A stretch of DNA of 64,000 bases, from NCBI RefSeq assembly GCF_028368995.1, contig NZ_JAQNDL010000004.1, positions 576,001 to 640,000 of the forward strand. The letters run 5' to 3'. Under the pieces are notes generated by a model. That model ran no database searches and had not been told where the DNA came from. It was given only the letters and a program-made list of their open reading frames with translations. Positions within the stretch are counted from its first letter, which is position 1; the number at the start of each line of letters is the position of its first letter. The translations under genes were made by a program, and so were the position numbers. Positions 151 through 63,862 of this stretch are shown here, piece by piece. The stretch is from Nannocystis bainbridge. Lineage in GTDB: Bacteria; Myxococcota_A; Polyangia; Nannocystales; Nannocystaceae.

Positions 151-222
151 AACGGACATGTCGTGAAGGACATGTCCGTTCGGGAATGGCAAAAAGGGCA
201 TGTCCTCGCGGACATGCCCTTT
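151..222. repeat. 14-bp tile cluster (two TGTCC-N4-GGACA pairs, each a long inverted repeat)
   Basis: AACGGACATGTC-gtgaag-GACATGTCCGTT (151-180) and AAAGGGCATGTCC-tcgc-GGACATGCCCTTT (193-222), between convergent genes. Confidence 0.9.
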
Positions 223-253
223 CATACATGGCGACCGGGCGCCGGCGCGCGGC

Positions 254-1753
254 TCACATCGGAAGGATGCTGAGCAGCTGGCCGCCCGTCATGTCCGAGT
301 AGACGTAGTGGCTGCCGGGGATCTGGACCTGCTGCATGCCGGGGACGTTGTCGGGGTCGATCTTCCAGGCCCAGCCCTCCTGATCGACCAGCCACACGAA
401 CTTCTCGGCGTCGACGCTGAGGCCGATCGCGGTCGAGCAGGGGTTGGTGTTGTGGCTGGCGACCAGCGTCTTGGTCTGGCGGTCGATCTGCAGCAGCGCG
501 CACGGGCCGTTGGAGGCGACCCACACGTGGTCGGCGTCGGCCGTGATGCCGCGGAAGCAGGCGTTGGTGCCGGGCACCGAGGTGTACTGCTCGGTGTCGG
601 CGTCGAAGGTGCTGACCGGGCCGGAGCAGCCGGCGAACCACGGGTTGCCGTCGCCGTCGACGGTGAAGCCGTACGACTGGATGTTCGCCGGCGGGGTCCA
701 GCGCGACACGGTGATCGGGTTCTGGTCGGTGTTGATGCGCAGGAACTCGCCGCGCAGGCCGCCGAACCACGGGCGGAACTCGGGGTCGAGCGCGCCGCCG
801 TAGGGGGCGTAGCCCTGGCCGTTCCAGCCGGGCACCTGGACCGTCTCCTCGACGGTGCCGGTCTCGCCGTCGACGCGCACGAAGTGAGCGGCGCCGCCGG
901 GCGCGTTGTAGCCGAGCCACACCTTGGGCTGGACGTACTTGCAGAGATCGTAGTCCCAGGTGCCGGGCGTCCAGGTGACGCCGCGCGGGCCGTTGGAGAA
1001 GCCGCCGGCGAACGGCCACTGGTGCGTCCAGAGCAGACACTCGTCGGCCAGCCACGGGCGGACGTCGTTCTTGTTCTGCGAGGTGTCGATCATGCCGTTG
1101 CCGTTCTTGTCGACGCAGTCGGCGATGTCGGCGGCGAACATGGAGGAGCTGCCGGTCTGGCGGTTGTTGACGACGACGAAGCGGCCGTCGGCGCTGACGG
1201 CGGTGCGCGAGGGGCTGTCGCCGCCGGGGCCGGTCTTGTAGCGGGCGACCTCGACGAGCGTCTGCGTGTTGATCTTGGCGACGTCGCTGAGGTCCTGGCT
1301 GGGGACCCAGATGAAGCTCTTCTCGACCGGGCCCATGCCGACGCCGTCGCCGGGCTCGCACACCGGGTTGTTGCCGGTGGTGCCGGTGGTGGTGGTGCCC
1401 TCGGTGGTGGTGGTGCCCTCGGTGGTGGTCGTCGAGGTGGTGCTCGTCGTCGTCGCGGTCGTGGTCGTGGTGGTGTCAGGACCGGTCGAGGTCGGCGAGA
1501 TGGTGGTCGTCGGCGAGGTGGTCGAAGTCGTCGTCGTCATGCCGTCGGACTCCGAGCCCGAGGCCATGGTGGGGCTGGTCGAGTCGGTGCCGGTCGGCAC
1601 CGTCGCCGTGGTCCCGGTCGGCGGGTCCACCGTCGAACCCTGGGTCATGCCGGCCGACTCGGTGCCGGTTGCCGTCCCCGAGTCTCCGCACGCCGTGAGC
1701 CCCACCGCCAGGGGCGCCGCCAACCACCACTTGCCAACGCTTGTCTTCTGCAT
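254..1753 (-). CDS. Lipoprotein with Thr-rich linker and a Vgb/lyase-like beta-propeller domain
   Basis: Signal peptide with lipobox LAVGLTAC, long Thr/Ser linker, SPSRTAVS motif, DKNGNGMIDTS Ca-loop-like motif, C-terminal YVYSDMTG. Confidence 0.75.
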   Translation of the reverse strand: MQKTSVGKWWLAAPLAVGLTACGDSGTATGTESAGMTQGSTVDPPTGTTATVPTGTDSTSPTMASGSESDGMTTTTSTTSPTTTISPTSTGPDTTTTTTATTTSTTSTTTTEGTTTTEGTTTTGTTGNNPVCEPGDGVGMGPVEKSFIWVPSQDLSDVAKINTQTLVEVARYKTGPGGDSPSRTAVSADGRFVVVNNRQTGSSSMFAADIADCVDKNGNGMIDTSQNKNDVRPWLADECLLWTHQWPFAGGFSNGPRGVTWTPGTWDYDLCKYVQPKVWLGYNAPGGAAHFVRVDGETGTVEETVQVPGWNGQGYAPYGGALDPEFRPWFGGLRGEFLRINTDQNPITVSRWTPPANIQSYGFTVDGDGNPWFAGCSGPVSTFDADTEQYTSVPGTNACFRGITADADHVWVASNGPCALLQIDRQTKTLVASHNTNPCSTAIGLSVDAEKFVWLVDQEGWAWKIDPDNVPGMQQVQIPGSHYVYSDMTGGQLLSILPM

Positions 1754-2052
1754 GGTTCCCATCATGCGAGATCGAGGTGAAGTTCGGTGGTTGGTCGAGT
1801 GGATTGTCCCGTTTAAAGATGAGTGGATCCTCTCTGGTCGATTCCGCTCGCTGGCGCGTTCTCGCGCGGGAGGAGGGATCGAAGCTGTCGCACAGGACAT
1901 GTCTCGAGAGACAGGATGGATGCGCCGAGCGGGCGTTACCGCGGGCGTTGCGAGGCTTCAGGGGCCCGTGGGAGCGATTGCAAGCGAGGCCGGGGTCGTT
2001 CGCACGCCCCGAAACGAGGACCGGGAGGCCGGGTCGGCGGTATCCTGGAGCG

Positions 2053-3940: not shown

Positions 3941-4026
3941 GCGCCTGTCTCTCGGGTCATATCCTCGGGGTCATGCAGGCTGATCCTTGAGGGTGTCTTA
4001 AAGGGCATGTCCGAAGGGACATGCCC
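3941..4026. repeat. 14-bp tile cluster
   Basis: 10-bp cores at 3941/3955/3969 and 3989/4003/4017, e.g. GGGCATGTCC-gaag-GGACATGCCC. Confidence 0.8.
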
Positions 4027-6310: not shown

Positions 6311-6376
6311 GGCCGTGGCCTTCGGGCCATGGCCCTTCGTATATGTCCGAAAGGACATGTCTTCCGGGTCATGGCA
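6311..6376. repeat. 14-bp tile array (5 cores)
   Basis: Cores at 6311, 6325, 6339 (GTATATGTCC), 6353 (GGACATGTCT), 6367; convergent junction. Confidence 0.85.
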
Positions 6377-8192
6377 CTTCGGACAGCCAGGCGGCGACGT
6401 CGGCGCGCAGCTCGACCGGGCGGTCGTAGGTGACGGCGTGGGAGGCGTCGTAGGGGGCGAGGCGGATGGTGCGCAGGCCGGGGTCGGGCTCGCCGGGGAA
6501 GGCGTCCTGGCGGAACTGGACGTGCAGCTCGCCGGGGCGCTCGCTGCCGCGGGGCAGGTCGTCGACGCGCTCGACTTCGACGACGAGGGACTTGAAGACC
6601 TCGAGGGTGGGGGCGATCGAGGGGCCCCACACGGCGAGGTCGCGGGCGGCGTCGGTGATGAAGACGCGGGCGTAAGCGAGGTCGTGGAGGAACAGGGCGC
6701 CGTAGTGCGGGTCCATCGAGTGGACGCCGGCCATGATCGCGGCCGGGCCGCGAAAGCCGTCGAGCGCCTCGACCGAGAACGGCAGGTAGTAGCGGTCCCA
6801 GGCCGGGAGGGCGCCGAGGTGGTCGGCGAGATCGGGGGCGTCGGCGGGGTAGTCGCCGGGGTTGCGCACGCGGAAGGCGTTGGGGCGATCGGCAGCGGCG
6901 AGGCCGTCGATGGCCTCGGGCGCGACCTGCAAGACGGCGGCGAGGGTGTCGCGGCGCGACAGGCCGGCGCGGGTGCTGGCGAACAGGTCACCGAGCCAGG
7001 AGGTAGGGCCGGCGATGTCGTAGCGGCTGCGGCCGGCGCCCTCGACGAAGTTGATGACGTTGGACCACGGGTCGCACGGGACCGGCTTGGCGGCGCAGGC
7101 GACGAACTCGAGGCCGAGGCTGTCCGCGAGGACATGTACCGGGGAACCTGGCGCTTCGAGCAGGTCGCCGGCGCGGGCCTGCTGGACCGAGCCGGCCAGG
7201 CTGGGCTGGACGAGCACGAGGTTGCCGAGAGCGGCGCCGACGAGGTCGGGGCCCGGCGGGTCGGCGTCGGGGAAGCGGGCGGCGAGGTGCCCGGCGATCG
7301 CGGCGGCGAGGGCAGGGTCGCGGTAGCGGCCAGGGCCGGCCTCGTAGCGGGCCGGGAACAGCAGCATGTGGAGGAGGATCGAGGCGCGGATGCCCCCGTA
7401 GCTCTCGCCGACGAGGACGAGGCGGCGACCGGCGAGCTCGGGGTGGTGGTCCCAGAAGCGCAGGAGGGCGCGGGCGAAGTCGGCGGCGTCGAGGTAGCTG
7501 TTGAAGTTGCGGCTGTTGAGCTCGGCCGAGCGCGCTGACATCGGCGAAGGGTCGGCGATCGATTGCTGCGAGAAGCCGGTGTTGCGGGCGTCGAGGTAGA
7601 GGAGGTGGCCGAGGGCGGTCCAGGGCGCGGGGCTGGGCACGGGCTCGAGGTCGGCGCCGAAGGTCTGCGGGGCGGTGTTGCCGGCGAGGATGAGGCCCGT
7701 GGACACGCCGGGGCCGCCGTTGAAGAGGAGCAGGAGCGGGGCGTCGCCAGGATCGTGGTCGGCGGGCTGAAAGCTGTAGAAGAGCCGCGCCGGCGAACTG
7801 GTCATGGCGATGACGGTGTCGCCCTCGCCGATCTGGTAGTCGACGCCCTCGACGTCGAGATAACCTGCCTCGGGGGACAGGTCGGGACAGTGACAGAGGA
7901 AGACGTCGTCCTCGCAGGTGCAGGTGGCGCACGGCGGAGGGGCATCGCAGCCGGTCGGGATGCTGGTGGTGGGAGCGGCGGTGGTCGAGGTCGAGGTGGT
8001 GCTCGTCGAGGTCGAGGTCGTCGTCGTCGGCGAGGTCGAGATCGAGGTCGAGGTCGAGGTCGTGGGCGGATCGAGCGAGGTGGTGGAGGTGGTGGTCGCG
8101 GCGCTCGAGGTGCTGTCGCTGTCGCCGGCCGGCGGCTCGGGACAGGCCTCCAGGAGCAGCGGCAGGGCAGCCAGGCGCAGGCGCGGCGACAT
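6369..8192 (-). CDS. Exported serine carboxypeptidase, family S10, with Thr-rich N-terminal linker
   Basis: LLFNGGPGVS, YLDARNTGFS, nucleophile motif VGESYGG, C-terminal ASHAV; N-terminal signal ending LLLEAC. Confidence 0.85.
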   Translation of the reverse strand: MSPRLRLAALPLLLEACPEPPAGDSDSTSSAATTTSTTSLDPPTTSTSTSISTSPTTTTSTSTSTTSTSTTAAPTTSIPTGCDAPPPCATCTCEDDVFLCHCPDLSPEAGYLDVEGVDYQIGEGDTVIAMTSSPARLFYSFQPADHDPGDAPLLLLFNGGPGVSTGLILAGNTAPQTFGADLEPVPSPAPWTALGHLLYLDARNTGFSQQSIADPSPMSARSAELNSRNFNSYLDAADFARALLRFWDHHPELAGRRLVLVGESYGGIRASILLHMLLFPARYEAGPGRYRDPALAAAIAGHLAARFPDADPPGPDLVGAALGNLVLVQPSLAGSVQQARAGDLLEAPGSPVHVLADSLGLEFVACAAKPVPCDPWSNVINFVEGAGRSRYDIAGPTSWLGDLFASTRAGLSRRDTLAAVLQVAPEAIDGLAAADRPNAFRVRNPGDYPADAPDLADHLGALPAWDRYYLPFSVEALDGFRGPAAIMAGVHSMDPHYGALFLHDLAYARVFITDAARDLAVWGPSIAPTLEVFKSLVVEVERVDDLPRGSERPGELHVQFRQDAFPGEPDPGLRTIRLAPYDASHAVTYDRPVELRADVAAWLSEVP

Positions 8193-10380: not shown

Positions 10381-10413
10381 GAAAATGTCCTTGGGGACAT
10401 GTCTCGACGGACA
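10381..10413. repeat. 14-bp tile cluster
   Basis: GAAAATGTCC-ttgg-GGACATGTCT-cgac-GGACA. Confidence 0.8.
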
Positions 10414-10422: not shown

Positions 10423-11304
10423 CTAGTCGGCGGTGAGGACCTCGTCGAGGCGCGTGGCGACCAGGACGCGGGCGGCCCAGGTGTCGAGCACGGCCTCGTC
10501 GCGGCAGTCGAGGACGCGCTGGCGCTGCGCCTCGGTCAGGGCGAAGCCCTTGAGCTGCAACAGCTTGAGCACGATCTCGGCCTTGCCGGCGACCCGGCCC
10601 TTGACCTCGCCCTCGGCGATGCCTTCGAGCCAGGGCTTGCGGAACATGTCGCTGATCGGTTCCCAGCGCTTCTTGGTGGCCATGAGCTGCTCCAGGGCGA
10701 GGCGGGCCGCGCGGCCGAGCAGGCCGACGACGAAGTCAGGGTAGTGGATCCCCCGTTCGTCGTCGAGCTCGCGGCTCGCGTCGAGCGCTGCCAGGGCGAT
10801 CTGCTCGACGCCGGGCTCGTCGGCGTGGGCGGCGACCGACAGCACCGCCAGCTCCGGCAGCTCCCGCGCCCGGTCGGCGTCGGTGATGATGGGGACCGCC
10901 TCCGGACCGAGGACCCACGGGCGCAGGACGTTGCGCTGGCGGCCGAGGTCGATCGGCTCGGCGCACCAGCGGGCCACGTCGCGGTCGAGCGAGACGACGA
11001 CGAGGGTCACGGGGCAGCTCAGGCGGGTGCGCAGGCCGGCGACGTAGAGCGGCCATGTCCAGCGCTTGCGCGGGTCTCGCTCGACCTGGACCTCGACGAC
11101 CAGCGCCTCGTCGGGCTGCTCGGGCGCGCCGCCGAGGCCGAGGACGGCGTCAGCGCGGTGCTCGGCGAAGTGGAGGTCGACGAATTCGGCGGCGCTGATC
11201 CGGACCGGACCCGAGGCGGGCGCTCCGGGCCACAGCAGGTCGGGGATCAGCGCCGGGGCGTGGCGGACGAGCTGGACCAGCGCCTCATGGGACAGCTTGG
11301 GCAT
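10423..11304 (-). CDS. Rpn-like / PD-(D/E)XK-like protein of the type that is multicopy in myxobacteria
   Basis: RADAV...VVEVQ motif, WPLYVAGLR, C-terminal EGIAEGEVKG...LDTWAARVL (DUF4351-like tail). Confidence 0.65.
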   Translation of the reverse strand: MPKLSHEALVQLVRHAPALIPDLLWPGAPASGPVRISAAEFVDLHFAEHRADAVLGLGGAPEQPDEALVVEVQVERDPRKRWTWPLYVAGLRTRLSCPVTLVVVSLDRDVARWCAEPIDLGRQRNVLRPWVLGPEAVPIITDADRARELPELAVLSVAAHADEPGVEQIALAALDASRELDDERGIHYPDFVVGLLGRAARLALEQLMATKKRWEPISDMFRKPWLEGIAEGEVKGRVAGKAEIVLKLLQLKGFALTEAQRQRVLDCRDEAVLDTWAARVLVATRLDEVLTAD

Positions 11305-13172: not shown

Positions 13173-14405
13173 ATGTCCGCTTCGTCTCCCGCCGCTCCGT
13201 TCGACGCGCAGGCGTTCGATGCTCACGTGATGTCGACGTACGCCCGCTACCCGATCGCGCTCGAGCGCGGCGAGGGGTGCAGGGTGTGGGACACGGAGGG
13301 GCGGGCTTACCTCGACTTCGCGGCCGGGATCGCGACCTGTACTTTGGGACATGCCCACAAGAACCTGGTCGAGGCGGTGACGCGGCAGATCGGCAAGCTG
13401 CACCACGTCTCGAACCTGTTCTACATCCCCGAGCAAGGCGCCCTGGCGGCGCTGCTGGCGGCGCTGGGGGCGGGGGAGCGGGCGTTCTTCTGCAACTCGG
13501 GGGCGGAGGCCAACGAGGCGGCGATCAAGCTGGCGCGCAAGTATGGGCGCACGCGCCTCGGCATCGAGAAGCCGGTGGTGATCGCGGCGCAGGCGAGCTT
13601 CCACGGGCGCACGCTGGCGACGCTGACGGCGACCGGGCAGGCCAAGTACCAGCAGAACTTCGACCCGCTGGTGCCGGGCTTCGTGCACGTGCCGTTCAAC
13701 GACGCCACCGCGCTCGGCGAGGCGATCGTCGAGCTCGACCGCGAGCGCAAGCAGGTGGCCGCGGTGCTGATGGAGCCGCTGCAGGGCGAGGGCGGGATCC
13801 GGCCCGGCGATCCGGCGGTGTTCCGCAAGATCCGCGAGCTGTGCGACGCCCGCGGGATCCTGCTCATGTTCGACGAGGTCCAGGTCGGCGTCGGCCGCAG
13901 CGGCAAGTGGTGGGGCCACCAGCACCTCGACGTCGAGCCCGACGTCATGACGCTGGCCAAGGGCCTGGCCGGCGGGGTGCCGATCGGCGCGATGCTCTGC
14001 AAATCGAGCTGCGACGTGTTCCAGCCCGGCGACCACGCGAGCACGTTCGGCGGCAACCCGCTGGCGTGCGCGGCGGCGCTGGCGGTGCTGATGACGATCG
14101 AGAAGGACCGGCTGGTCGACAACGCGCGGCAGCGCGGCGACCAGCTGCGCGCGGGGCTGCAGGCGCTGGCGAAGTCGTCGCCGGGCAAGATCGCCGAGGT
14201 GCGCGGCTGGGGCCTGCTGCTCGGCGCGGAGCTGGGTCCGTCCGAGACGCGCACGGCTCCCGAGATCGCCCGCGCGGCGCTCGACGCCGGGCTCCTGCTG
14301 GTCCCCGCGGGGCCGCGGGTGATCCGCTTCGTGCCGCCGCTGATCGTGTCGTCGGCCGAGATCGACGAGGCGCTGGCGGTGTTCGCCAGGGTGCTGGCGG
14401 GGTGA
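13173..14405 (+). CDS. argD: Acetylornithine aminotransferase
   Basis: FFCNSGAEANEAAIK, SFHGRT, EPLQGEGG, FDEVQVG, LAKGLAGG, HASTFGGNP; next to the arg operon. Confidence 0.92.
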   Translation: MSASSPAAPFDAQAFDAHVMSTYARYPIALERGEGCRVWDTEGRAYLDFAAGIATCTLGHAHKNLVEAVTRQIGKLHHVSNLFYIPEQGALAALLAALGAGERAFFCNSGAEANEAAIKLARKYGRTRLGIEKPVVIAAQASFHGRTLATLTATGQAKYQQNFDPLVPGFVHVPFNDATALGEAIVELDRERKQVAAVLMEPLQGEGGIRPGDPAVFRKIRELCDARGILLMFDEVQVGVGRSGKWWGHQHLDVEPDVMTLAKGLAGGVPIGAMLCKSSCDVFQPGDHASTFGGNPLACAAALAVLMTIEKDRLVDNARQRGDQLRAGLQALAKSSPGKIAEVRGWGLLLGAELGPSETRTAPEIARAALDAGLLLVPAGPRVIRFVPPLIVSSAEIDEALAVFARVLAG

Positions 14406-15841: not shown

Positions 15842-15932
15842 GGTTGTCTTTCGGACATGTCCATCGGGGCATGTCTGAAAGAGCCTGAACGTTCGGGCAT
15901 GTGAAAGAGGACATGTCCGAACGGGCATGTGA
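15840..15932. repeat. 14-bp tile array (6 cores)
   Basis: Cores at 15853, 15867, 15881, 15895, 15909, 15923 with spacers atcg/gaaa/gttc/aaga/gaac. Confidence 0.92.
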
Positions 15933-17442: not shown

Positions 17443-18396
17443 TCACGGGCCGGCGGGCTCGGGGTCGCGCGGCACCCCCTGGCGCTCGGGCAGGCCGAGG
17501 GCGAGGTTCAGGTTCTGCAGGGCCTGCGAGGCGGCGCCCTTGAGCAGGTTGTCGAGGGTGACGACGACGACGGCGTGGCGGTCGTCGACGTGGAGGCCGC
17601 CGATGGTGACGTCGTGGCGGCCGGCGACGTCGCGGACCTCGGGGATGTCGCTCGTGACGCGCACGAGCGGCTCGTCGGCGTAGACGCTGCGGTAGCGCTC
17701 GAGCAGCTCGGCGCGCTCGAGCGAACGCGCGAGCGGGAGGGTGATCGTCAGGGTGATGCCGCGGAAGAACGGGGCGACGTGAGGGACGAAGCGGACCGCG
17801 TGGCCGAGGTGATGGCTGGCCTCGCGCTCGTGCAGGTGGCCGGTGAGGGCGTAGGGCATGAGGTTGTCGCGCAGGCGCTCGGGGTCGTTGCGCGGCGAGG
17901 GGGTGGTGCCGGCGCCGCTGTAGCCGGACACGCCGAAGGCCTGCGGCGGGCCGGCGAGCAGCTCCAGCAGCGGAGCGACGCCGAGCTGGATGCCGGTGGC
18001 GTAGCAGCCGGGGTTGGCGATCCGGCGGGCGCCGCGGATCTGGGCCCGGTGGCGCTCGGGCAGGCCGTAGGCCCAGGCGGGGTCGAAGCGGTAGTCGGCC
18101 GAGAGGTCGACGAGCACGGGGCCGCGCGCGTCCAGGGCGTCGGCGTAGGCGGCGGCGAGGCCGTTCGGCAGGGCGAGCACGACGGCGTCGACGGGCCAGG
18201 AGGCGACTGTCTCGGGGGACATGTCCTCGAGGACAATGTCGGCGGGGGCGTCGGTGAGGTGGGCCCGCAGCGGGTCGCCGACGCCCTGGCGCGAGGCGGC
18301 GCGGGTCAGGCGGAGGTCGTCGTGGCCGGCGAGCAGGCGCGCGAGCTCGCCGCCGACGTGGCCGCGCGCGCCGACGAGGCCGAGGGTGAAGCTCAT
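17443..18396 (-). CDS. argC: N-acetyl-gamma-glutamyl-phosphate reductase
   Basis: GARGHVG, DLSADYR, ANPGCYAT, SGYSGAG, DNLLKGAASQA. Confidence 0.95.
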   Translation of the reverse strand: MSFTLGLVGARGHVGGELARLLAGHDDLRLTRAASRQGVGDPLRAHLTDAPADIVLEDMSPETVASWPVDAVVLALPNGLAAAYADALDARGPVLVDLSADYRFDPAWAYGLPERHRAQIRGARRIANPGCYATGIQLGVAPLLELLAGPPQAFGVSGYSGAGTTPSPRNDPERLRDNLMPYALTGHLHEREASHHLGHAVRFVPHVAPFFRGITLTITLPLARSLERAELLERYRSVYADEPLVRVTSDIPEVRDVAGRHDVTIGGLHVDDRHAVVVVTLDNLLKGAASQALQNLNLALGLPERQGVPRDPEPAGP

Positions 18397-18409
18397 GGCC
18401 GGCCTCCGT

Positions 18410-18489
18410 GAACAGGGTCGAAAGGACATGTCCACAGGAGCATGTCGTCATGGACATGCCCGCTGGGGCATGTCTGAAGGGGCATGGCG
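18410..18489. repeat. 14-bp tile array (6 cores) inside the arg operon
   Basis: Cores at 18410, 18424, 18438, 18452, 18466, 18480 between argB/A and argC. Confidence 0.92.
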
Positions 18490-19841: not shown

Positions 19842-20996
19842 TCAGGACAGGATCGCGCGGTAGCGGGTGGCCGCCTCGACGAGGTCGGCCAGGGGGACGT
19901 ACTCGCCCGCGGTGTGGGCCTGCTCGATCGAACCTGGCCCATAGACCAGGACGTCGCAGCCGGCGGCCGAGAACAGGGCGGCCTCGGTCCAGAAATCGAC
20001 GGGGTCGCCGGGCGGGAGGCCGAGGCGGGCGGCCAGGGCGGACGCGGCCTGGCGGGCCGCCGTCAAGCGCGCGGGGCCGCCGGCGGGCAGCGGCGGGGCG
20101 AGGAAGCCGGGCGTGAAGCGGACGCGCGCGGGGTCGGGCGCGAGCGCGAACAGCTCGGCGAGGGCGAGCTCGGGCGGGAGCTCGGGCGGCGGCCGCACGC
20201 CGAAGCGCACGGTGGCGGCGCTGGCGATCATGTTGGCCTTGAGGCCGCCCTCGACGGCGCCGAGGTTGAGCCGCAGACCCCGGAGCGAGCCGGCCGCGCC
20301 GGCGGTCTCGCTGGCGCCCGCGCGGGCGAGGGCGAGGCTGGCCCAACGGACGGCCTCGTGGACGGCGCTGTCGCGCAGGGCCCGGGCGGCGGAGGCGTGG
20401 CCGCCGATGCCGGAGAACACGGCGGTGGCGGTGCCGATCCCGCGGTGCTCGAGCACCGCGCGGCAACGGGTGGGCTCGGCGACGACGACGCTGCGGAAGG
20501 TCGGGTGCGAAGCTGTCCCGGAGGACATGTCGGATGTCCGCGGGGACAGGTCGGAGCGGGTCAGGAATTCGCGGATGCAGCGGCTGCTGCCGGCCTCCTC
20601 GTCGGACGAGAACAGCACGGCGGCGGGGCCGGTGGTGGCCTCGAGCACGCTCAGGAGGCAGGCAGCGGCGCCCTTGATGTCGCAGGCGCCGAGGCCGACG
20701 GCGAGGTCGCCCTCGATGCGCAGGCGGTGGGGGTCGGCGGTCCAGCCGGGGTCGGCGGGCACGGTGTCGACGTGGACGTTGAACAGCACCTGCGGGGCGC
20801 CGCGCACGGCCAGCAGGTAGACGCAGCCGTCGCCGAGGTCGACGGTGTCGCAGGTGAGACCTGACCCCTGGAGCATGTCCCGCAGGTACGCGAACAGCCC
20901 GGCGTCGCCGGCGATCGCCCGCGGCGGGTTGCGGGTGTCGAAGGCGACCAGGCGCGTCAGGTGTTCGAGGGTGCGCCGGAGCGTGGCTTCGGTCAT
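19842..20996 (-). CDS. argE: Acetylornithine/acetylcitrulline deacetylase
   Basis: DTRNPPR, FNVHVDTVP, GACDIKG, DEEAG, AEPT, DFWTEA, QAHTAGE; start overlaps the argG stop (ATGA). Confidence 0.92.
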   Translation of the reverse strand: MTEATLRRTLEHLTRLVAFDTRNPPRAIAGDAGLFAYLRDMLQGSGLTCDTVDLGDGCVYLLAVRGAPQVLFNVHVDTVPADPGWTADPHRLRIEGDLAVGLGACDIKGAAACLLSVLEATTGPAAVLFSSDEEAGSSRCIREFLTRSDLSPRTSDMSSGTASHPTFRSVVVAEPTRCRAVLEHRGIGTATAVFSGIGGHASAARALRDSAVHEAVRWASLALARAGASETAGAAGSLRGLRLNLGAVEGGLKANMIASAATVRFGVRPPPELPPELALAELFALAPDPARVRFTPGFLAPPLPAGGPARLTAARQAASALAARLGLPPGDPVDFWTEAALFSAAGCDVLVYGPGSIEQAHTAGEYVPLADLVEAATRYRAILS

Positions 20997-22222
20997 CGCT
21001 GCCCGGGGCGCCGGCGCGGGTTGACGCGCGCGGACAGGGTCGAGCTCATGCCGAGCAGCTTGATGAAGCCCTCGGCCTCGCGGGCGTCCCAGTCGGCCGA
21101 CTGAGCGTAGACGGCGCCCTTGTTGCGCAGGATGTGCTCGGAGCGCACGGCGATCGGGGTGACGACGCCGCCGGCGGTCTCGAGGGTGACGGTGCCGTTG
21201 ACGACGGCCTGCGACGAGCGCAGGAACGCCTCGAGGTCGTCCTTGAGCGGCTCGAAGAAGAAGCCGCGGTAGACCAGCTCGACCCACTTCTTGGCGACCA
21301 GCGGCTTGAAGCTGTTCTGGTTGGCGGTGAGGATGGCCTCCTCGAGCGCGCGGTGGGCCGTCATCAGGCCGGCGATGCCGGGGCACTCGAACACGATCCG
21401 GCCCTTGAGGCCGATGGTGGTGTCGCCGGTGTAGATGTTGCGGCCGACGCCGTAGGCGCCGAGGCGCTCGTTGAGGCGGCGCAGGATGTCGGGGCCGGCC
21501 ATCGCCTCGCCGTCGAGCTTGACGGCGACGCCGCGCTCGAAGGTGATGTCGAAGCGCGCGGGCTGCCGCGGCCAGTCCTCGGGGCGCGCGCACATCTGCC
21601 AGGTCTCGGGCCCGGGGGTCTGAAACTCGTCGATCTCCGAGCCCGAGGCGGTGACGCCGAGCAGGTTGACGTTGATGCTGTACTTGGCGGTCTTGGGCCG
21701 CACGTGGTGGCCGAGCTTCTGCAGGTACTCGGCCTCGTAGGCGCGCACGGCGTGGTGCTCGTGCTGGATGTCGCGGATCGGCGCGACGATGTCGTAGTCG
21801 CCGAGCGAGCGCACGGTCTGGTCGAAGCGGACCTGATCGTTGCCCATGCCGGTGCAGCCGTGGGCGAACACGCGGGTGCCGCGAGCGTCGCACAGGGCCA
21901 GCGCGCGCTCGACGATGATGTAACGATCGCTGACGAGCAGCGGGTAGACGTCCTGGTAGAGCTGGCCGCCGATGACGAGGGGGACGACGACGTCGTCCCA
22001 GATCGGCTGGGCGCCGCTCTCGGTCACGTGCTCGACGGCCCCGAGGTCGCGCGCGCGCTGCTCGATGTAGGCCCGCTCGGCGTCGTCGACGCCGCCGGTG
22101 TCGACGAACAGGGTGACGACTTCGTAGCCGCGCTCGCGCAGGTAAGGCACGCAGAAGCTGGTGTCGAGGCCGCCGGAGAAGGCGAGCACGACCTTCTTGT
22201 TCGAAGCTGTACTTTGGGACAT
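20993..22222 (-). CDS. argG: Argininosuccinate synthase
   Basis: LAFSGGLDTS, HGCTGMGNDQVRF, GLKGRIVFE. Confidence 0.96.
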   Translation of the reverse strand: MSQSTASNKKVVLAFSGGLDTSFCVPYLRERGYEVVTLFVDTGGVDDAERAYIEQRARDLGAVEHVTESGAQPIWDDVVVPLVIGGQLYQDVYPLLVSDRYIIVERALALCDARGTRVFAHGCTGMGNDQVRFDQTVRSLGDYDIVAPIRDIQHEHHAVRAYEAEYLQKLGHHVRPKTAKYSINVNLLGVTASGSEIDEFQTPGPETWQMCARPEDWPRQPARFDITFERGVAVKLDGEAMAGPDILRRLNERLGAYGVGRNIYTGDTTIGLKGRIVFECPGIAGLMTAHRALEEAILTANQNSFKPLVAKKWVELVYRGFFFEPLKDDLEAFLRSSQAVVNGTVTLETAGGVVTPIAVRSEHILRNKGAVYAQSADWDAREAEGFIKLLGMSSTLSARVNPRRRPGQR

Positions 22223-24667: not shown

Positions 24668-24742
24668 GATGGCGGACGCTACCTCCGCTCAGGAATGCGC
24701 GCAAGCGCGCGCGCCGGCGAGCAGGTGCACGGGCGTGAGCGA

Positions 24743-24806
24743 GACGGCGACTCGGGCGTGAGCGGGGGCGCGGGCGGGAGCGTGACGGCGACTCGGGCGT
24801 GAGCGG
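24743..24806. repeat. 23-bp direct repeat
   Basis: GACGGCGACTCGGGCGTGAGCGG at 24743 and 24784, in the divergent region upstream of carA. Confidence 0.7.
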
Positions 24807-25062
24807 AGTCTGGCGCGGGTCCGGGCGGCGGTGGTTCTCCCGCGTGCCCGAGGAGGCGTCGCCTGGGGTCGACGCGCGGCAGGTCGAGCGGGCCGGGCGG
24901 TGGGTGACCTGCTGGCGGCGGCGCGACCCTGGGGGCGCGAGGCGGTAGCTGTCTCTTGGGCCAGGTCGGCGGAGCGGCCGCCTCGGCGAGTCGTCGGCGC
25001 GGGGTTCGCGGGCGCTTCCCCTCCGGGCGGGAACGCGCTAGGGAGCGTGCCCGCGGAGGCCC

Positions 25063-26289
25063 ATGGCAGCAGCTTTGTCGAGGATCGACCCACCGAGCAC
25101 GCCGGGCCTGTTGGCGCTGGCCGACGGGACCCTGTTTCGCGGCCGCGCGCTCGGAGCCCACGGGCGCACGTGCGGCGAAGTCGTGTTCAACACGGCGATG
25201 ACCGGATACCAGGAGGTCGTCTCCGACCCGAGCTATCACCAGCAGATCGTGACGCTGACGGCGGCGCACGTCGGGGTGGTCGGGGTCAACGCGGACGACG
25301 AGGAAGGCCGCGGGCCGCAGGTCGCCGGGCTGGTGGTCCGCGACGCGCCGCGCATGTTCGCGTCGTGGCGCGGGCGCGAGAGCCTGGGGGCGTATCTGCA
25401 GCGCGCGGGGGTGGTGGCGGTGGCGGACATCGACACGCGCCGGCTGACGCACCTGCTGCGCGAGCGCGGGGCGATGGCGGGCTGCGTGGCGGCCGGCGAG
25501 GCGGCCCGCGACGAGGCGGGCTGCGTGGCGGCGGCGCGGGCGTTCCCGGGGCTGCAAGGCGCGGCGCTGGCGGAGGCGGTCAGCGTGCCGGAGCCGGCCG
25601 GGTGGACGGCGGGCTCGGTCCGCTGGCTCGAAGGACATGTTCGTGAGGGCATGTCCGATGCGGCAGGTCCGGAGGGGCATGTTCGTGAGGGCATGTCCCC
25701 GGGGGCAGCCGGGCACGTGGTGGCGTTCGACTTCGGGATCAAGCGCAACATCCTGCGGCTGCTGGTCGACCGCGGGCTGCGGGTGACGGTGGTGCCGGCG
25801 GCGACGACGGCGAGCCAGGCGCTGGCGCTGCGGCCGGACGGGATCTTCCTGTCGAACGGGCCGGGCGATCCGGAGCCGCTGCAGGCCCAGCAGGCGGCGA
25901 TCCGCGAGCTGGTGGCGGCGGGGCTGCCGGTGTTCGGGATCTGCCTCGGGCACCAGCTGCTGTGCCTGGCGCTGGGGGCCCGCACGTTCAAGATGAAGTT
26001 CGGCCACCACGGGGCCAACCACCCGGTGCGCGAGCTGGCGAGCGGGCGGGTGCTGATCACGAGCCAGAACCACGGGTTCGCGGCCGACCCGGCGACGCTG
26101 CCGGCGGCGCTGCGGGCGACGCATGTGTCGCTGTTCGACGGGTCGCTGCAAGGGGTGGAGCTGGCGGATCGGCCAGTGTTCTCGTTCCAGGGCCACCCGG
26201 AGGCGTCGCCGGGGCCGCGCGAGCTGGCGGGGCTGTTCGACAGGTTCGCCCGCGAGGTGAGCGCGGGCCGGACCACGAAGGGGGTGTGA
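25063..26289 (+). CDS. carA: Carbamoyl-phosphate synthase small subunit
   Basis: [55 protein letters not shown]; exact start uncertain. Confidence 0.96.
25633..25707. repeat. 14-bp tile array embedded in frame in carA
   Basis: Cores at 25633, 25647, 25661, 25675, 25689; 42-bp internal duplication encoding EGHVREGMS twice. Confidence 0.92.
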
Positions 26290-26290: not shown

Positions 26291-29440
<3,150 letters not shown>

Positions 29441-31736: not shown

Positions 31737-31820
31737 AAGAATGTCTATAGGGACATGTCGTCAGAGACATGTCTCTAAAATAATGTCGTTATGGACATGT
31801 CAATATGGACATGTCCTTCG
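31737..31820. repeat. 14-bp tile array (6 cores, AT-rich spacers)
   Basis: Cores at 31737, 31751, 31765, 31779, 31793, 31807 with spacers atag/tcag/ctaa/ttat/atat. Confidence 0.92.
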
Positions 31821-33725: not shown

Positions 33726-33801
33726 ATGGCCTCAGGGACATGCGCTTTCGAACATGTCTTCATGGACATGCATTTTGGGGCCTGCTCTTTAGAACAGGCG
33801 C
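33722..33801. repeat. 14-bp tile array (6 cores)
   Basis: Cores at 33722, 33736, 33750, 33764, 33778, 33792. Confidence 0.85.
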
Positions 33802-44690: not shown

Positions 44691-44935
44691 GCGGATGTCC
44701 CGGAAGACATGTCGCCGCGGACGGGCGTGAGCGAATGTCCCGGAGGCGCGGCGTCGTCGGGTGGGAGCGGCTGGCCGAGAGAGTCTGTCCCGGAGGACAT
44801 GTAGAATCGGGCAGGTCTTATCGTTGTCCTGGAGGACATGTCGCCCGGGGCGACATGGAATGTCCCGGAGGGCATGTCGCGGGGGACATGCCTTGAAGAA
44901 CATGTCCTCGGAGGCATGCTCCGAGGGGCAGGCTC
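44691..44935. repeat. Largest tile cluster (several phased sub-arrays)
   Basis: Cores at 44691/44705; 44767-44809; 44820/44834; and a six-core run at 44856, 44870, 44884, 44898, 44912, 44926. Confidence 0.92.
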
Positions 44936-47232: not shown

Positions 47233-47270
47233 GTGGGTGGTCGTGGGGACATGTCCGAACGGTCATGTCG
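47233..47270. repeat. 14-bp tile cluster
   Basis: TGGTC-gtgg-GGACATGTCC-gaac-GGTCATGTCG. Confidence 0.8.
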
Positions 47271-48272: not shown

Positions 48273-48352
48273 AAACTTGTTCAATGGGGCATGTTACATT
48301 GGACATGTCCATTGGAGCATGTTCGATAGAACATGTCCTTTGGGGAATATCC
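48273..48352. repeat. 14-bp tile array (6 cores, AT-rich)
   Basis: Cores at 48273, 48287, 48301 (GGACATGTCC), 48315, 48329, 48343. Confidence 0.92.
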
Positions 48353-49875: not shown

Positions 49876-50003
49876 GGGCGCGCCGGAGATCGTAACATGT
49901 CGCGAGGGACATGTCCTCGGGGACATGCGATCAGGGGCGCGCCGGAGATCGGTACATGTCGCGAGGGACATGTCGCGAGGGACATGTCCTCGGGGTCATG
50001 CGC
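49876..50003. repeat. Duplicated tile arrays (59-bp unit duplication)
   Basis: GGGCGCGCCGGAGATCG..ACATGTCGCGAGGGACATGTC twice; cores 49893/49907/49921 and 49952/49966/49980/49994. Confidence 0.92.
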
Positions 50004-55814: not shown

Positions 55815-55894
55815 ATAGGTGTCCGTGAGGACATGTGCGAAGGGACCTGTGCGTCGGGACAGGGCCGATCGCGCATGTCCTCGCGGACATGCGC
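55815..55894. repeat. 14-bp tile array (6 cores)
   Basis: Cores at 55815, 55829, 55843, 55857, 55871, 55885; convergent junction. Confidence 0.9.
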
Positions 55895-61815: not shown

Positions 61816-62023
61816 GCGGCGACGGTCGCTCGCTCGCGGTGTGGTGATTGGCAGGGTGCTGCCGATCGCCGGTCGCTCGCTCGCGCCGGGTGTGGTGATT
61901 CATCGGTGCGCGCGGCAAATGACTTGAGTCTGCTTGCGGGCCGGTGAACCTCGAACACGGTCAAGCCGTGCCGTCACGCCCGGAACTCTCCGGATGCGGG
62001 TCCGCGGCGCAGAGGGCCGATGT

Positions 62024-63799
62024 ATGATGATTCGCGCGGGTCGTGGGGTGGGCCGTCTCGTCGATGTCACGGCGCTGGCGCTGGTCGCCGGCTGCGGCGA
62101 ACCGGAGGCCGTCGGCACCGCGACGGCGTCGTTCGGCAGCGGCACGGGTGCGATCGACGACGGGCTCGAGACGATGGTCGGCTGGTCCGGATCGAGCGGC
62201 TGGGTGACGACGGGGCCGGACGATCCAGTCGGGCAGTGCGGCGACGATCCGCTGTGCCTGCCGCCGAGCGAGATGGTGCCGACCGACAAGCCCGATGGGC
62301 TGCCGAGCCCGCTCCCGGGGGTCTACGACGATCTGGGGCCGGCGGCGCCCGACGCGGGCTTTCGCGCGCTGATCGGGTTCCCGACCCGCCAGCGCGCGCT
62401 GCTCGAGGACCGGGTGGCGCTGATGTACGCGCCCGGCAGCCCGCTGTTCCGCGGCTACATGACGGTGGAGGCGTGGATGGCCGAGCACGCGCCGGACCCG
62501 GGCGACGTCGGGCTGGTCGAGAACTGGCTGCGCGCGCAGGGGTTCACGATCGACTTCGAGGCCAAGAACCGCTTGCTGGTCCAGTTCTCGGGCACGGTCG
62601 CCGGCTTCAATGCGACGTTCAAGACCACGCTGCACGTGTGCCTGCGCAAAAACCCGCTGTGGGACGACCCGCCGTTCCCGGTCTATTGCACGCTGGATCG
62701 GTTCACGCTGCCGAAGTTCGTCGCCGAGCGCACCAACGGGCTGGCGACCGCCGACCTGCCGGCGGAGAAGGGCGAGCTGACGGCGGAGGTCGGCGAGATC
62801 GTGGCCGACCCGCCGGGGCCGGAGGCGTACGGGCCGCGGGCGTTCTACGGCGCTTACGACATGCAGCCGCTGTTCGAGGCCGGGTTCAACGGGCGCGGGT
62901 CGTCGCTCGGGGTGGTCGCGGCCGGGACGTATCACGCGATCGACCTGCAGATCTTCTGGAAATCGTTCGGGGTGGTGCGCGCGCTGCCGAAACGGATCGC
63001 GGTGATGGAGCCGGTGTTCGAGCGCGTGACCGAGACGGCGCTCGATGTCCAGTGGGCCTCGGCGATGGCGCCCGGCGCCGACGTGGTGGTCTACGAGGGG
63101 CCCGACGCGCGCAACACCTCGCTGCTGTTCACCTGGAACCACGCGATCGCCAGCAATGCGGTCGAGGTGCTGACGTTCTCGTTCGCCCACCGCGAGGACT
63201 CGGAGCCGAAGCCGCTGCGCCATCAATACGACGAGTCGGCGCTGATGGGCGCGGCGCTCGGGATGACGCTGGTGTCGGCCAGCGGCGACTCGGGCAAGCC
63301 CGACACGCCGTGCTCGTCGCCGTACGTGACGTGCGTCGGCGGGACCCACCTGGTGGCCAGCCAGGAGGGGGTGATCGAGAAGGAGTGGGCGTGGCAGATG
63401 TCGGGCTCGGGCCCGGCCAAGACGTTCGCGCGCCCGTACTGGCAGGACGCCGACGTCAAGCTCGACCGGCGCGCGATGGCCGACCTGGCGCTGAGCTCGT
63501 CGACCGAGGCGCCGATGTGGATGCGTCGCTGGGCCAAGTGGGAGTACTTCGGCGGCACGTCGTTCGCGGCGCCGGCGTTCGCCGGGATGGTCGCGGTGAT
63601 CAACGGCCACCGCCGCGCGCGCGGGCTGCCGCGCGTCGGGTTCCTCAACCCGATCCTGTACGGCCACGCGCCGACGCGCGCGACCTTCCGCGACATCGTG
63701 TACGGCTTCACCGAGCACTATCACGCCGGGCCCGGCTGGGACTATCCGACCGGGCTCGGCGCCCCCGACGTGGCCCTGCTGGCGCTGGCATTGCCTTAG
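62024..63799 (+). CDS. S53 (sedolisin/kumamolisin) peptidase with pro-domain, probable lipoprotein
   Basis: ETALDVQW (E-x-x-x-D), ASGDSG, VTCVGGT, GGTSFAAP, GWDYPTGLG; ALVAGC lipobox; start uncertain. Confidence 0.9.
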   Translation: MMIRAGRGVGRLVDVTALALVAGCGEPEAVGTATASFGSGTGAIDDGLETMVGWSGSSGWVTTGPDDPVGQCGDDPLCLPPSEMVPTDKPDGLPSPLPGVYDDLGPAAPDAGFRALIGFPTRQRALLEDRVALMYAPGSPLFRGYMTVEAWMAEHAPDPGDVGLVENWLRAQGFTIDFEAKNRLLVQFSGTVAGFNATFKTTLHVCLRKNPLWDDPPFPVYCTLDRFTLPKFVAERTNGLATADLPAEKGELTAEVGEIVADPPGPEAYGPRAFYGAYDMQPLFEAGFNGRGSSLGVVAAGTYHAIDLQIFWKSFGVVRALPKRIAVMEPVFERVTETALDVQWASAMAPGADVVVYEGPDARNTSLLFTWNHAIASNAVEVLTFSFAHREDSEPKPLRHQYDESALMGAALGMTLVSASGDSGKPDTPCSSPYVTCVGGTHLVASQEGVIEKEWAWQMSGSGPAKTFARPYWQDADVKLDRRAMADLALSSSTEAPMWMRRWAKWEYFGGTSFAAPAFAGMVAVINGHRRARGLPRVGFLNPILYGHAPTRATFRDIVYGFTEHYHAGPGWDYPTGLGAPDVALLALALP

Positions 63800-63862
63800 G
63801 GACATGTCCTCGAGGGGCATGCTCGAAGGGGCATGTCCTCGCGGGCATGTCCTCGCGGGCAG
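63786..63862. repeat. 14-bp tile array
   Basis: Cores at 63800 (GGACATGTCC), 63815, 63829, 63843, 63857 (one 15-bp step); convergent junction. Confidence 0.9.

What the first reader, a model, noticed from the sequence alone, without database searches (positions are those of the whole stretch)
151..63862. Dispersed, phased 14-bp palindromic tile system (TGTCC-N4-GGACA) across the whole window
Seen: at more than 25 loci a 10-bp palindromic core (consensus GGACATGTCC, variants GGGCATGTCC, GAACATGTCT, GGACAGGTCG) recurs at almost always exactly 14-bp steps, separated by 4-nt spacers that differ from each other. Example 18424-18489: GGACATGTCC acag GAGCATGTCG tcat GGACATGCCC gctg GGGCATGTCT gaag GGGCATGGCG. 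Arrays often begin with only a TGTCC half and end with only a GGACA half, so the real unit looks like TGTCC-N4-GGACA stacked with no gap. Several independent arrays (15853, 18410, 31737, 33722, 44856, 48273, 55815) have about six cores. Inference: a fixed period with free spacers and degenerate cores fits cooperative binding sites for a dimeric DNA-binding protein better than slippage repeats. Three tiles make 42 bp, about four helical turns. I do not recognise this as a described REP/BIME, parS, matS, KOPS or HIP1 motif, so it may be an undescribed chromosome-wide binding or organisation system.
Basis: partly seen in the sequence, partly recalled or inferred. Interest (0 to 1): 0.92.

Follow-up and report, generated by a model that had tools for sequence, protein, structure and literature searches.

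The report
Phased 14-bp palindromic motif of Nannocystis
A 14-base palindromic DNA word (TGTCC-N4-GGACA) occurs thousands of times in this myxobacterial genome, stacked head to tail just after genes end and also kept inside genes, so something, most likely a paired DNA-binding protein that nobody has yet described, appears to read it.

Summary
TGTCC-N4-GGACA (up to 1 mismatch) occurs 57 times in the window against 1.6 expected. In the 11-Mb genome there are 1987 exact copies against 3 for the reversed control. Units stack at a strict 14-bp step: 801 chains, against 0-8 at other steps.

Named records with exact double cores are nearly all Nannocystis. Single units are also enriched in two sister genera, and arrays are amplified mainly in Nannocystis.

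- Arrays sit 0-30 nt after stop codons.
- About a quarter of exact units lie inside coding sequence, 495 against 16 in synonymous-codon shuffles. One example is an in-frame array in carA.
- Coding units are conserved between species at otherwise fast-changing third-codon A/T positions, 32/36 against 286/964.

No RAYT transposase, Rfam family or paper matches.

Best reading: a lineage-specific recognition site for a symmetric double-stranded-DNA-binding protein, kept by selection or drive. A REP-like hairpin element is the main rival. The protein and the function are unknown.

The parts
154..219 (.). Two short arrays (4 cores) between two convergent gene ends (stops at 140 and 254)
4003..4026. 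2-core array about 70 nt after the stop at 3933. In the closest species (G003) the alignment shows no array; the wider stretch holds two cores.
6325..6376 (.). 4-core array filling the gap between convergent genes (stops at 6290 and 6369)
7121..7134 (.). Isolated exact unit inside a called coding sequence (6369-8192, minus strand). The arms are conserved in G003; one spacer base differs.
10381..10404 (.). 2-core array 19 nt after the stop of the minus-strand gene 10423-11304
15853..15932 (.). Two sub-arrays (5 cores) in a convergent gap; the first starts 12 nt after the stop at 15841. As RNA it folds at -53.8 kcal/mol, z -8.8.
18208..18235 (.). Two stacked units inside the 5' part of the called gene 17443-18429 (minus strand), conserved in G003
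18424..18489 (.). In G003 the count (3 cores at up to 2 mismatches in each species) and the phase are kept, but the spacers differ.
20514..20553 (.). Two exact units 21 bp apart (atypical spacing), conserved in G003
25633..25698 (+). 4-core array read in frame inside carA (25063-26289). It encodes GHVREGMS...GHVREGMS in the interdomain linker, which is 14 residues longer than in E. coli CarA.
28575..28588 (+). Isolated exact unit inside carB (26291-29440) with no length change. The same 14-mer is present in a sister-genus genome (G013) and missing from 8 other genera.
31751..31816 (.). 4-core array with A/T-rich spacers; only its second half is shared with G003
33736..33773 (.). 3-core array about 55 nt after the stop at 33828 (minus-strand gene); not seen in G003
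44786..44907 (.). Array of units and cores ending 27 nt from the stop at 44934 (minus-strand gene); not seen in G003
47247..47270 (.). 2-core array
48287..48338 (.). 4-core array in a convergent gap (stops at 48101 and 48397); folds at z -6.1
49893..50003 (.). 7 cores in two blocks that are a recent 59-bp duplication, ending 16 nt from the stop at 50019 (minus-strand gene)
55820..55894 (.). 5-core array next to the stop at 55898 (minus-strand gene), in a convergent gap
63800..63862 (.). 4-5 units filling the convergent gap between stops at 63799 and 63867

Best explanation
The 14-bp inverted repeat TGTCC-N4-GGACA is a lineage-specific recognition word read on double-stranded DNA by a symmetric, probably dimeric, sequence-specific protein that has not been identified. 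Single sites exist at about 70-300 exact copies per genome in two sister genera of Nannocystaceae. In Nannocystis, and in one sister-genus genome, they have multiplied to about 1500-2100 exact copies in near-complete genomes, and many are stacked with no gap (14-bp step). This is the geometry expected if neighbouring dimers touch. Sites persist wherever the DNA tolerates them: mostly in the first 30 nt after stop codons, but also inside genes, both as isolated sites made by substitution and as in-frame arrays in protein linkers. They are held at the consensus by purifying selection or by a biased-fixation drive. Shown: abundance, phase, placement, phyletic spread, presence in coding sequence and conservation at synonymous sites. 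Inferred: that a protein reads the word, that it is a dimer, that binding is cooperative, and any role at gene ends such as a roadblock to transcription or a topological barrier.
For: (1) Specific word. 1987 exact units in the genome against 3 for the reversed control. Control arms with the same A/T layout give 0-12 in coding and 1-32 in non-genic DNA, against 512 and 1341.
(2) Strict phase. 2654 of the 3880 steps of 44 bp or less between neighbouring cores are exactly 14 bp, against 21 at 13 bp and 10 at 15 bp. 801 chains of 3 or more CATG occur at 14-bp steps, against 0-8 at steps 11-13 and 15-17. Arrays end on half-cores, so the unit is the inverted repeat.
(3) Strand symmetry. Spacer composition is mirror-symmetric when oriented by the upstream gene (all p >= 0.69). 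One-mismatch variants inside genes show no preference for G-U over A-C (181 against 217 among 1148 units).
(4) Inside genes. 495 exact units in 5.8 Mb of deep coding sequence against 16.2 +/- 2.9 (maximum 20) in 12 synonymous-codon shuffles. 339 of 503 are isolated.
(5) Conservation. In 32 aligned genic units ascertained only in this genome, arm bases that are A/T at codon position 3 are identical in the closest species in 32/36 cases, against 286/964 for background. G/C at position 3 gives 75/80 against 22803/26477.
(6) The carB unit was made by substitutions with no indel and is shared with a sister genus, but is missing from the 8 other genera aligned.
(7) No master copy. Neighbouring cores share a non-consensus base in 1011/4895 cases (20.7%) against 18.9% for random pairs. 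Adjacent spacer pairs recur between arrays 430 times against 319 +/- 20.
(8) Phyletic pattern. Exact units per genome are 333-2090 in the window's genus, 67-696 and 87-169 in two sister genera, and 0-20 in 14 other genera, with controls of 0-10.
Against: No binding protein was found or even shortlisted.

Anchoring to stop codons is not predicted by DNA binding alone: 240 of 553 arrays in tandem gaps of 300 bp or more lie in the first tenth after the stop or overlap it.

At 3' arrays the sense strand keeps variants that would form G-U pairs more often than variants that would form A-C mismatches (833 against 643, 466 against 402, 278 against 234). The sense strand also folds 1.2 kcal/mol better than the antisense (393 against 326 of 725, p = 4e-4). 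Both point to some selection on RNA or single-stranded structure.

Arrays change unit number and spacers quickly between species. Spacer identity is 20/47 and 22/56 against 78% for other intergenic DNA, which looks more like a dynamic repeat than conserved operators.

Holding thousands of sites by selection alone is hard.

Gene calls came from a crude GC3-based caller that covers 72% of the genome. Some 'genic' and 'divergent' assignments are therefore wrong, and several of the 32 'genic' units belong to arrays that may be intergenic.
Confidence: 0.45

Rival explanations
1. A REP/REPIN-like selfish or domesticated palindromic repeat. The units act as hairpins in single-stranded DNA or in the 3' untranslated RNA, where they stabilise mRNA or stop transcription. 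They spread through an unknown hairpin-recognising enzyme plus local slippage.
For: Placement resembles REPs. Arrays of 2 or more cores: 695 in 1298 convergent gaps, 805 in 3670 tandem gaps, 194 in 1339 divergent gaps. 1097 of 6640 gene 3' ends have an array within 40 nt, against 149 of 6640 5' ends. The first core often overlaps the TGA stop.

Arrays fold well as RNA, z -3.3 to -8.8 in 8 of 8 folds. There is a G-U bias on the sense strand, and the sense strand folds better. Flanking spacers two units apart are exact complements in 4.4% of pairs against 1.1% by chance.

Turnover between species is fast. Of 27 mappable arrays, the orthologous stretch in G003 has 0 cores in 4, 1 core in 6, and 2 or more in 17. 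Recent tandem expansions exist. In-frame arrays in protein linkers recall Rickettsia palindromic elements (recalled).
Against: No Y1 transposase (PF01797) was found in 0 of 11 genomes of the genus, although the search finds it in 5 of the 10 other genomes searched and in 6 of 14 control genomes.

No gene family recurs among the 84 genes flanked by arrays on both sides. There is no master sequence and spacers are unique.

A 14-bp insertion cannot sit in frame, yet 339 isolated exact units lie deep in coding sequence. The carB unit arose by substitutions without any indel.

Coding units show no strand bias and are conserved at synonymous sites. Compensatory change across the spacer is weak once ascertainment bias is removed (ratios 1.11-1.28, the same as for non-partner positions). 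No T-tract follows the arrays.
Confidence: 0.25
2. A DNA-uptake-signal-like word (as DUS in Neisseria or USS in Haemophilus). A receptor prefers DNA that carries it, and transformation plus recombination drive its spread wherever it is tolerated. The arrays after genes are a by-product.
For: Thousands of copies of a short, lineage-specific word, with graded copy numbers across three related genera. It is common inside genes. Each copy is pulled towards the consensus independently. Gain and loss between species. Local troughs of 10 units per 100 kb against a mean of 57, which could be recently acquired DNA. ComEC is present in this genome. That uptake words pile up as inverted pairs after genes is recalled knowledge, not tested here.
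Against: Known uptake words are not palindromes and are not phase-locked (recalled). ComEC is found in 58 of 61 genomes of the family, including the genera without the word, so it says nothing either way. I found no paper on transformation in Nannocystis; no search was aimed at that question, and the five searches for this motif or repeat turned up nothing of the kind. Drive alone does not explain the strict 14-bp stacking or the anchoring at stop codons.
Confidence: 0.15
3. A neutral by-product: microsatellite-like slippage of a 14-bp unit seeded by chance, with no reader and no function.
For: Some arrays are clearly recent tandem copies: identical adjacent spacers in 75 of 1670 cases against 1.1% by chance, 12 copies of a 13-bp unit and 7 copies of a 14-bp unit elsewhere in the genome, and the duplicated block at 49893-50003.
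Against: The same word recurs in about 2200 arrays and in 11 of 11 genomes of the genus. More than 95% of adjacent spacers differ. Idiosyncratic core variants are not inherited along an array. Isolated units are 30-fold enriched in coding sequence and conserved there.
Confidence: 0.03

Closest known systems
REP / BIME / REPIN elements of Enterobacteria and Pseudomonas (RAYT-mobilised)
   Same: Hundreds to thousands of short palindromes. They lie mostly outside genes, prefer gene 3' ends and convergent gaps, are arranged in clusters, can form hairpins, and differ in number between related species.
   Different: No RAYT gene in 0 of 11 genomes of the genus. The unit is only 14 bp, with a free 4-nt centre and a strict zero-gap stacking. 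No shared full-length copy exists. About a quarter of exact units lie in coding sequence and are conserved there.
DNA uptake sequences (Neisseria DUS, Pasteurellaceae USS); properties recalled, not tested
   Same: A short word at roughly one per few kb, lineage-specific with graded abundance in related genera, present inside genes and after genes, and with no associated transposase.
   Different: This word is a palindrome with a free centre and forms phase-locked arrays. Competence and a receptor are unknown here, and ComEC presence does not discriminate.
HIP1, the highly iterated palindrome of cyanobacteria; recalled
   Same: A short palindrome vastly over-represented in both coding and non-coding DNA of one lineage, with no known reader.
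   Different: HIP1 is a contiguous octamer and is not reported in phased stacks or anchored to stop codons (recalled). No link to methylation was tested here.
Operators built of abutting palindromic boxes bound cooperatively by dimers (MetJ met-boxes, omega-repressor heptads); recalled
   Same: Short symmetric boxes laid end to end with no gap, a variable number of boxes, and degenerate boxes tolerated next to good ones.
   Different: Those are a few sites in promoters of one regulon. Here there are thousands of sites, almost absent from promoter-side gaps (149 of 6640 5' ends), and no protein is known.
Short-unit intergenic repeat arrays near stop codons (GGGNATC heptamers of Xanthomonas and Nostoc; Rehm et al. 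2015, PMC4692102, outline and abstract read)
   Same: Arrays of a short unit spread over the genome, over-represented outside genes, rare between divergent genes, preferentially within 50 bp of a stop codon, and variable in unit number.
   Different: Those are G-rich direct heptamers proposed to form quadruplexes. Here the unit is a 14-bp inverted repeat with a free centre, and it also occurs as conserved single sites in genes.

Membership tests
REP/REPIN-RAYT system | A RAYT (Y1 transposase, PF01797) gene in the genome | tested here: not met
   0 of 11 genomes of the genus have a match. The same search hits 5 of the 10 other genomes searched and 6 of 14 control genomes.
REP/REPIN-RAYT system | Copies are near-identical descendants of a master sequence about 20-40 nt or longer | tested here: not met
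   Only the 5+5 arm bases are shared and the spacers are free. Neighbouring cores share variants at 20.7% against 18.9% for random pairs.
REP/REPIN-RAYT system | Extragenic location, mostly after genes | tested here: inconclusive
   Arrays are anchored after stop codons. However, 512 exact units and 378 arrays lie deep in called genes.
MITE | Terminal inverted repeats with target-site duplications | tested here: not met
   Spacers flanking a core are identical in 75 of 1670 cases. No longer element surrounds the arrays.
Intrinsic (Rho-independent) terminator | A G+C-rich hairpin followed by a T/U tract | tested here: not met
   Hairpins are predicted. T frequency after the last half-core stays at or below about 0.2 in 805 oriented arrays.
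DNA uptake sequence (DUS/USS type) | A lineage-specific short word, thousands of copies, also inside genes | tested here: met
DNA uptake sequence (DUS/USS type) | Natural competence with sequence-biased uptake through a specific receptor | not testable with these tools
   ComEC is present but occurs in 58 of 61 family genomes whether or not they carry the word.
Highly iterated palindrome (HIP1 type) | A palindromic word greatly over-represented in coding and non-coding DNA | tested here: met
   GGACATGTCC occurs 956 times against 0-48 for eight other 10-bp palindromes. The unit occurs 495 times in coding sequence against 16 expected.
Highly iterated palindrome (HIP1 type) | Link to a cognate DNA methyltransferase (proposed for HIP1; recalled) | not tested
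   No methylation data or methyltransferase search was run.
Any Rfam RNA family | A match at the gathering score | tested here: not met
   0 matches in the 64-kb window on both strands.
Operator of a known regulator (parS, matS, KOPS, LexA, CRP/FNR boxes) | Sequence identity to the described consensus | not tested
   Compared from memory only. The 5-N4-5 geometry equals that of FNR-type boxes, but the bases differ. A full-text search for the decamer returned 47 papers; none of the 20 listed concerns a bacterial repeat or binding site, and most of the top ones treat it as a p53 half-site.

The most novel reading that the evidence does not exclude
Nannocystis and its two sister genera carry an undescribed sequence-specific DNA-binding protein whose 14-bp dimer site has been driven to thousands of copies. 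In Nannocystis, stacks of bound dimers placed immediately after stop codons act as protein roadblocks or insulators that end or separate transcription units in a 72% G+C genome with few canonical terminators. This would be a protein-based punctuation system at gene ends, and some of its sites are embedded in genes.
Probability: 0.25. Interest if true: 0.88.

Novelty: new variant of a known kind. Interest (0 to 1): 0.75.

Why it matters
Very abundant, lineage-specific DNA words such as REP, DUS/USS, HIP1 and Chi have each pointed to a dedicated molecular machine. This one is about as abundant (roughly one exact copy per 5.5 kb). Its architecture was not found described in the searches run here: zero-gap 14-bp stacking, a free centre, anchoring at stop codons, and conserved copies inside genes. 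It occurs in a genus studied mainly for natural products.

It gives a concrete bait for finding the reader protein, and a three-genus gradient (about 100, a few hundred, about 2000 copies) in which to watch such a system expand. In practice, the arrays will confuse gene callers, and they add 14-residue 'GHV..DMS..' insertions to real proteins such as CarA. They are also a ready marker for the genus.

Tried and rejected
RAYT search: none in the genus.

Rfam scan of the window: nothing.

Literature: five full-text searches found no description. They covered Nannocystis with REP; the decamer; myxobacteria with repeats; Myxococcus with REPIN/RAYT; and Nannocystis with terminator, hairpin or repeats. 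Papers outside the open-access library and bioRxiv supplements could not be seen.

Earlier scan notes: none for this genome. Notes on other genomes describe unrelated palindromic repeats anchored at stop codons.

Expression: the run search found only small shares (0.05-0.13 of the sampled words) in soil, wetland and compost metatranscriptome contigs. Contigs cannot show RNA ends, so I laid no reads. Whether the arrays are transcribed remains open.

Compensatory pairing: my first test suggested a two-fold excess of compensatory doubles. This shrank to 1.1-1.3-fold, no better than for non-partner positions, once arrays were defined by CATG phase alone. I therefore do not use it.

Associated gene: the 84 genes flanked by arrays on both sides share no family.

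Arrays in 'divergent' gaps: most of the 53 lie hundreds of bases or more from at least one of the flanking called genes, so I read them as gaps in my gene calls rather than promoter sites.

Sister-genus sampling: 200 kb and 41 kb showed no separate, analogous 14-bp system. The whole-genome counts later showed the same word at low copy there.

ComEC as a test of the uptake idea: uninformative.

Canonical terminators in 20 kb: 10 against 4.1 +/- 2.3 in shuffles, too weak to use.

Full report
**1. Is it there?**

Yes. The quoted example reads as stated. TGTCC-N4-GGACA occurs 18 times exactly in the window against 0.05 expected, and 57 times with up to one mismatch against 1.61 expected; no shuffle comes near these counts. 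CATG-to-CATG distances peak sharply at 14, 28, 42 and 56 bp in the window. Over the whole 11.05-Mb, 71.5% G+C genome the counts are 3736, 2073, 1586 and 751 pairs against a background of roughly 60-480.

The genome holds 12,834 decamers within two mismatches of GGACATGTCC, against 2,517 for the reversed word. They form 2,198 arrays of two or more cores. 2,654 steps between neighbouring cores are exactly 14 bp, against 21 at 13 bp and 10 at 15 bp. Chains of three or more CATG at 14-bp steps number 801, against 0-8 at steps 11-13 and 15-17. GGACATGTCC is the most over-represented decamer relative to its reversed control: 956 copies, against 0-48 for eight other 10-bp palindromes.

**2. Anatomy**

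The unit is the inverted repeat TGTCC-N4-GGACA. The sequence profile shows TGYCC 9-5 nt before the first full core and GGNCA 5-9 nt after the last, then background. Exact units outnumber exact decamers in coding and in non-coding DNA.

The four central bases are nearly free, with three qualifications. They are about 50% A/T in a 28% A/T genome. They avoid A at the first position and T at the last. Their composition is mirror-symmetric when oriented by the upstream gene.

Isolated units extend the symmetry outwards (R-S-C-TGTCC ... GGACA-G-S-Y). A common core variant is GGACAGGTCC.

**3. Where it sits**

I called genes with a crude GC3-based caller: 6,640 ORFs covering 72% of the genome. It misses genes and misplaces some starts.

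With these calls, arrays of two or more cores fall as follows (n = 2,198):

| Location | Arrays | Regions of that type |
|---|---|---|
| Convergent gaps | 695 | 1,298 |
| Tandem gaps | 805 | 3,670 |
| Divergent gaps | 194 | 1,339 |
| Genic | 501 | - |
| Contig edges | 3 | - |

For the stricter 801 chains the numbers are 390, 312, 53, 45 and 1. Most of the 53 'divergent' cases lie hundreds of bases or more from at least one of the flanking called genes, which suggests uncalled genes.

Arrays start 0-30 nt after the upstream stop codon. In tandem gaps of 300 bp or more, 240 of 553 arrays lie in the first tenth of the free space or overlap the stop, and the rest are spread evenly. The TGA stop often replaces GGA or TGT of the first unit. 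1,097 of 6,640 gene 3' ends have an array within 40 nt, against 149 of 6,640 5' ends. No T-tract follows the arrays.

**4. The word is also inside genes**

Exact units occur 512 times more than 150 nt from either end of called genes (6.0 Mb) and 1,341 times in uncalled DNA (3.1 Mb). Seven control arms with the same A/T layout give 0-12 and 1-32.

Against 12 shuffles that keep each protein sequence and each gene's codon usage, deep coding sequence holds 495 units where 16.2 +/- 2.9 are expected. A neutral control palindrome gives 17 against 16.1. 339 of 503 units are isolated. Another 378 arrays of two or more cores lie deep in ORFs and are read as 'GHV..DMS..TGP'-like peptides with a 14-residue period.

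The window gives clean examples:
- The array at 25633-25698 is in frame inside carA. GC3 drops to 0.60 across it. It lengthens the interdomain linker by 14 residues compared with E. coli CarA (E = 7.9e-136).
- The isolated unit at 28575 lies in a conserved block of carB with no change of length.

**5. Conservation**

I aligned about 160 kb of synteny with the closest species available (G003). Background identity at codon positions 1, 2 and 3 is 0.88-0.93, 0.92-0.95, and at position 3 0.86 for G/C but only 0.30 for A/T.

For 32 aligned 'deep genic' units, ascertained in this genome only (of 38 in the block), arm bases that are A/T at position 3 are identical in 32 of 36 cases. G/C at position 3 is identical in 75 of 80. 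22 of the 32 orthologous 14-mers are within one mismatch of the consensus. Caveat: several of these units belong to arrays that my caller may have wrongly placed in genes.

The carB unit is identical in a genome of a sister genus. It is replaced by ordinary codons in eight other genera. It differs from them by about seven substitutions, including changes to rare codons.

**6. Arrays are dynamic**

Of 49 arrays in the syntenic block, 27 could be mapped. The G003 stretch holds no core in 4 cases, one in 6, two in 8 and three or more in 9. Some arrays are conserved base for base. Others differ in unit number or are missing.

Spacer identity is 20/47, and 22/56 in arrays matched in phase, against 0.78 for other intergenic DNA. 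Part of this gap may be mis-pairing of units after gain or loss.

Recent tandem copies exist, with identical adjacent spacers in 75 of 1,670 cases against 1.1% by chance (examples). They are a minority. Arrays do not share spacer pairs much beyond chance (430 against 319 +/- 20). Neighbouring cores do not inherit each other's deviations (20.7% against 18.9%). So there is no master copy, and each core is held near the consensus on its own.

**7. Who has it**

In the named genome collection, 64 of 78 loci with an exact double core are titled Nannocystis. Nine belong to a Nannocystaceae MAG, two to a Myxococcales MAG and three to unrelated taxa.

They are essentially absent from 20 genomes of other genera.

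A wider family sample refines this:

| Group | Exact single units per genome | Reversed control | Two-unit stacks per genome |
|---|---|---|---|
| Window's genus | 333-2,090 | 2-6 | 57-782 |
| Sister genus (7 of 7 genomes) | 67-696 | 0-4 | 1-15, but 239 in one genome |
| Second sister genus (5 of 5) | 87-169 | 0-10 | 0-2 |
| One further genus | 5-20 | 2-7 | 0 |
| 13 other genera | 0-11 | 0-7 | 0, except 1 in one genome |

In 16 sampled sites from the two sister genera, 10 are in called coding sequence and 6 are intergenic.

**8. DNA or RNA?**

For structure in RNA or single-stranded DNA:
- Arrays fold with z-scores from -3.3 to -8.8.
- In 725 oriented arrays the sense strand folds 1.2 kcal/mol better than the antisense (393 against 326, p = 4e-4).
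- Arm variants that would keep a G-U pair in the sense strand outnumber their mirror images (833/643, 466/402, 278/234), while the spacers show no skew.
- Spacers two units apart are complementary more often than chance (4.4% against 1.1%).

Against structure as the main constraint:
- Compensatory change is weak and no better than for non-partner positions.
- 21% of mini-hairpins carry a central C-A mismatch.
- Loops show no strand-specific preference.
- Coding units show no G-U bias (181 against 217).
- A pure structure would not hold one stem sequence across 2,200 arrays and three genera.

**9. Reading**

Insertion-type spread cannot explain isolated, in-frame 14-bp units made by substitution and then conserved. 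No RAYT is present (0 of 11), and no gene family travels with the arrays. The data call for a sequence-specific reader that acts on both strands alike, and a symmetric double-stranded-DNA-binding protein is the simplest candidate. Zero-gap stacking would reflect contacts between neighbouring dimers.

Whether the copies are kept by host-level selection or by a drive of the uptake-signal kind cannot be decided here. ComEC is present but is universal in the family. The stop-codon anchoring and the weak RNA signal suggest that, in Nannocystis, the arrays have a role or at least an effect at transcript ends.

I put the protein-site reading at 0.45, a REP-like hairpin element at 0.25, an uptake-type drive at 0.15 and neutral slippage at 0.03.

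**10. Known or new**

There is no Rfam match. Five full-text searches found no paper. The decamer search returned 47 papers; none of the 20 listed concerns a bacterial repeat or binding site, and most of the top ones treat it as a p53 half-site. The earlier scan holds no note on this genome. Its notes on other genomes describe different repeats anchored at stop codons. One of them led me to Rehm et al. 2015 (PMC4692102, outline and abstract read), which describes heptamer arrays with a similar placement and a different nature.

I class this as a new variant of a known kind: a highly iterated, lineage-specific DNA word with REP-like placement. I did not find its architecture described.

Noticed in passing
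window 25063-29440: carA (25063-26289) and carB (26291-29440) lie adjacent. CarA matches E. coli CarA at E = 7.9e-136 and carries the in-frame array. A second carB-like gene exists elsewhere in the genome (G000:C3, about 801.6 kb).
   Followed up: partly
window 13336-13352 and 22206-22222: The same 17-mer, a variant unit (TGTAC-TTTG-GGACA plus flanks), occurs twice. At 22222 the ATG inside its CATG is the start codon of the longest ORF (20993-22222, minus strand).
   Followed up: partly
G000:C3:552675-552938: Longest array in the genome: 19 cores, including 12 tandem copies of a 13-bp (not 14-bp) unit directly after a stop codon. It looks like a recent slippage expansion that breaks the usual phase.
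   Followed up: no
G000:C2:1217502-1217813 and other ORFs listed: Long ORFs contain runs of array-derived peptide repeats (for example PVPADMS.VTSS repeated). I did not check whether these ORFs are real proteins.
   Followed up: no
G000:C1 1.1-1.3 Mb and other 100-kb bins: Unit density falls to 10 per 100 kb against a mean of 57, and GC skew is near zero there. This may be recently acquired DNA or very long biosynthetic genes.
   Followed up: no
G067 (sister genus): One genome outside the window's genus has 696 exact units and 239 two-unit stacks, while its six genus-mates have 67-295 units and 1-15 stacks. This is either a second, independent amplification or a misplaced genome.
   Followed up: no
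window 1-64000: GC skew is positive throughout (0.08-0.24), although most called genes lie on the minus strand.
   Followed up: no
window 24719-24819; 1376-1530; 41446-41534: Unrelated tandem repeats: a 41-bp unit repeated about twice, and GGT-rich 15-30-bp units. The GGT-rich ones lie inside called genes.
   Followed up: no
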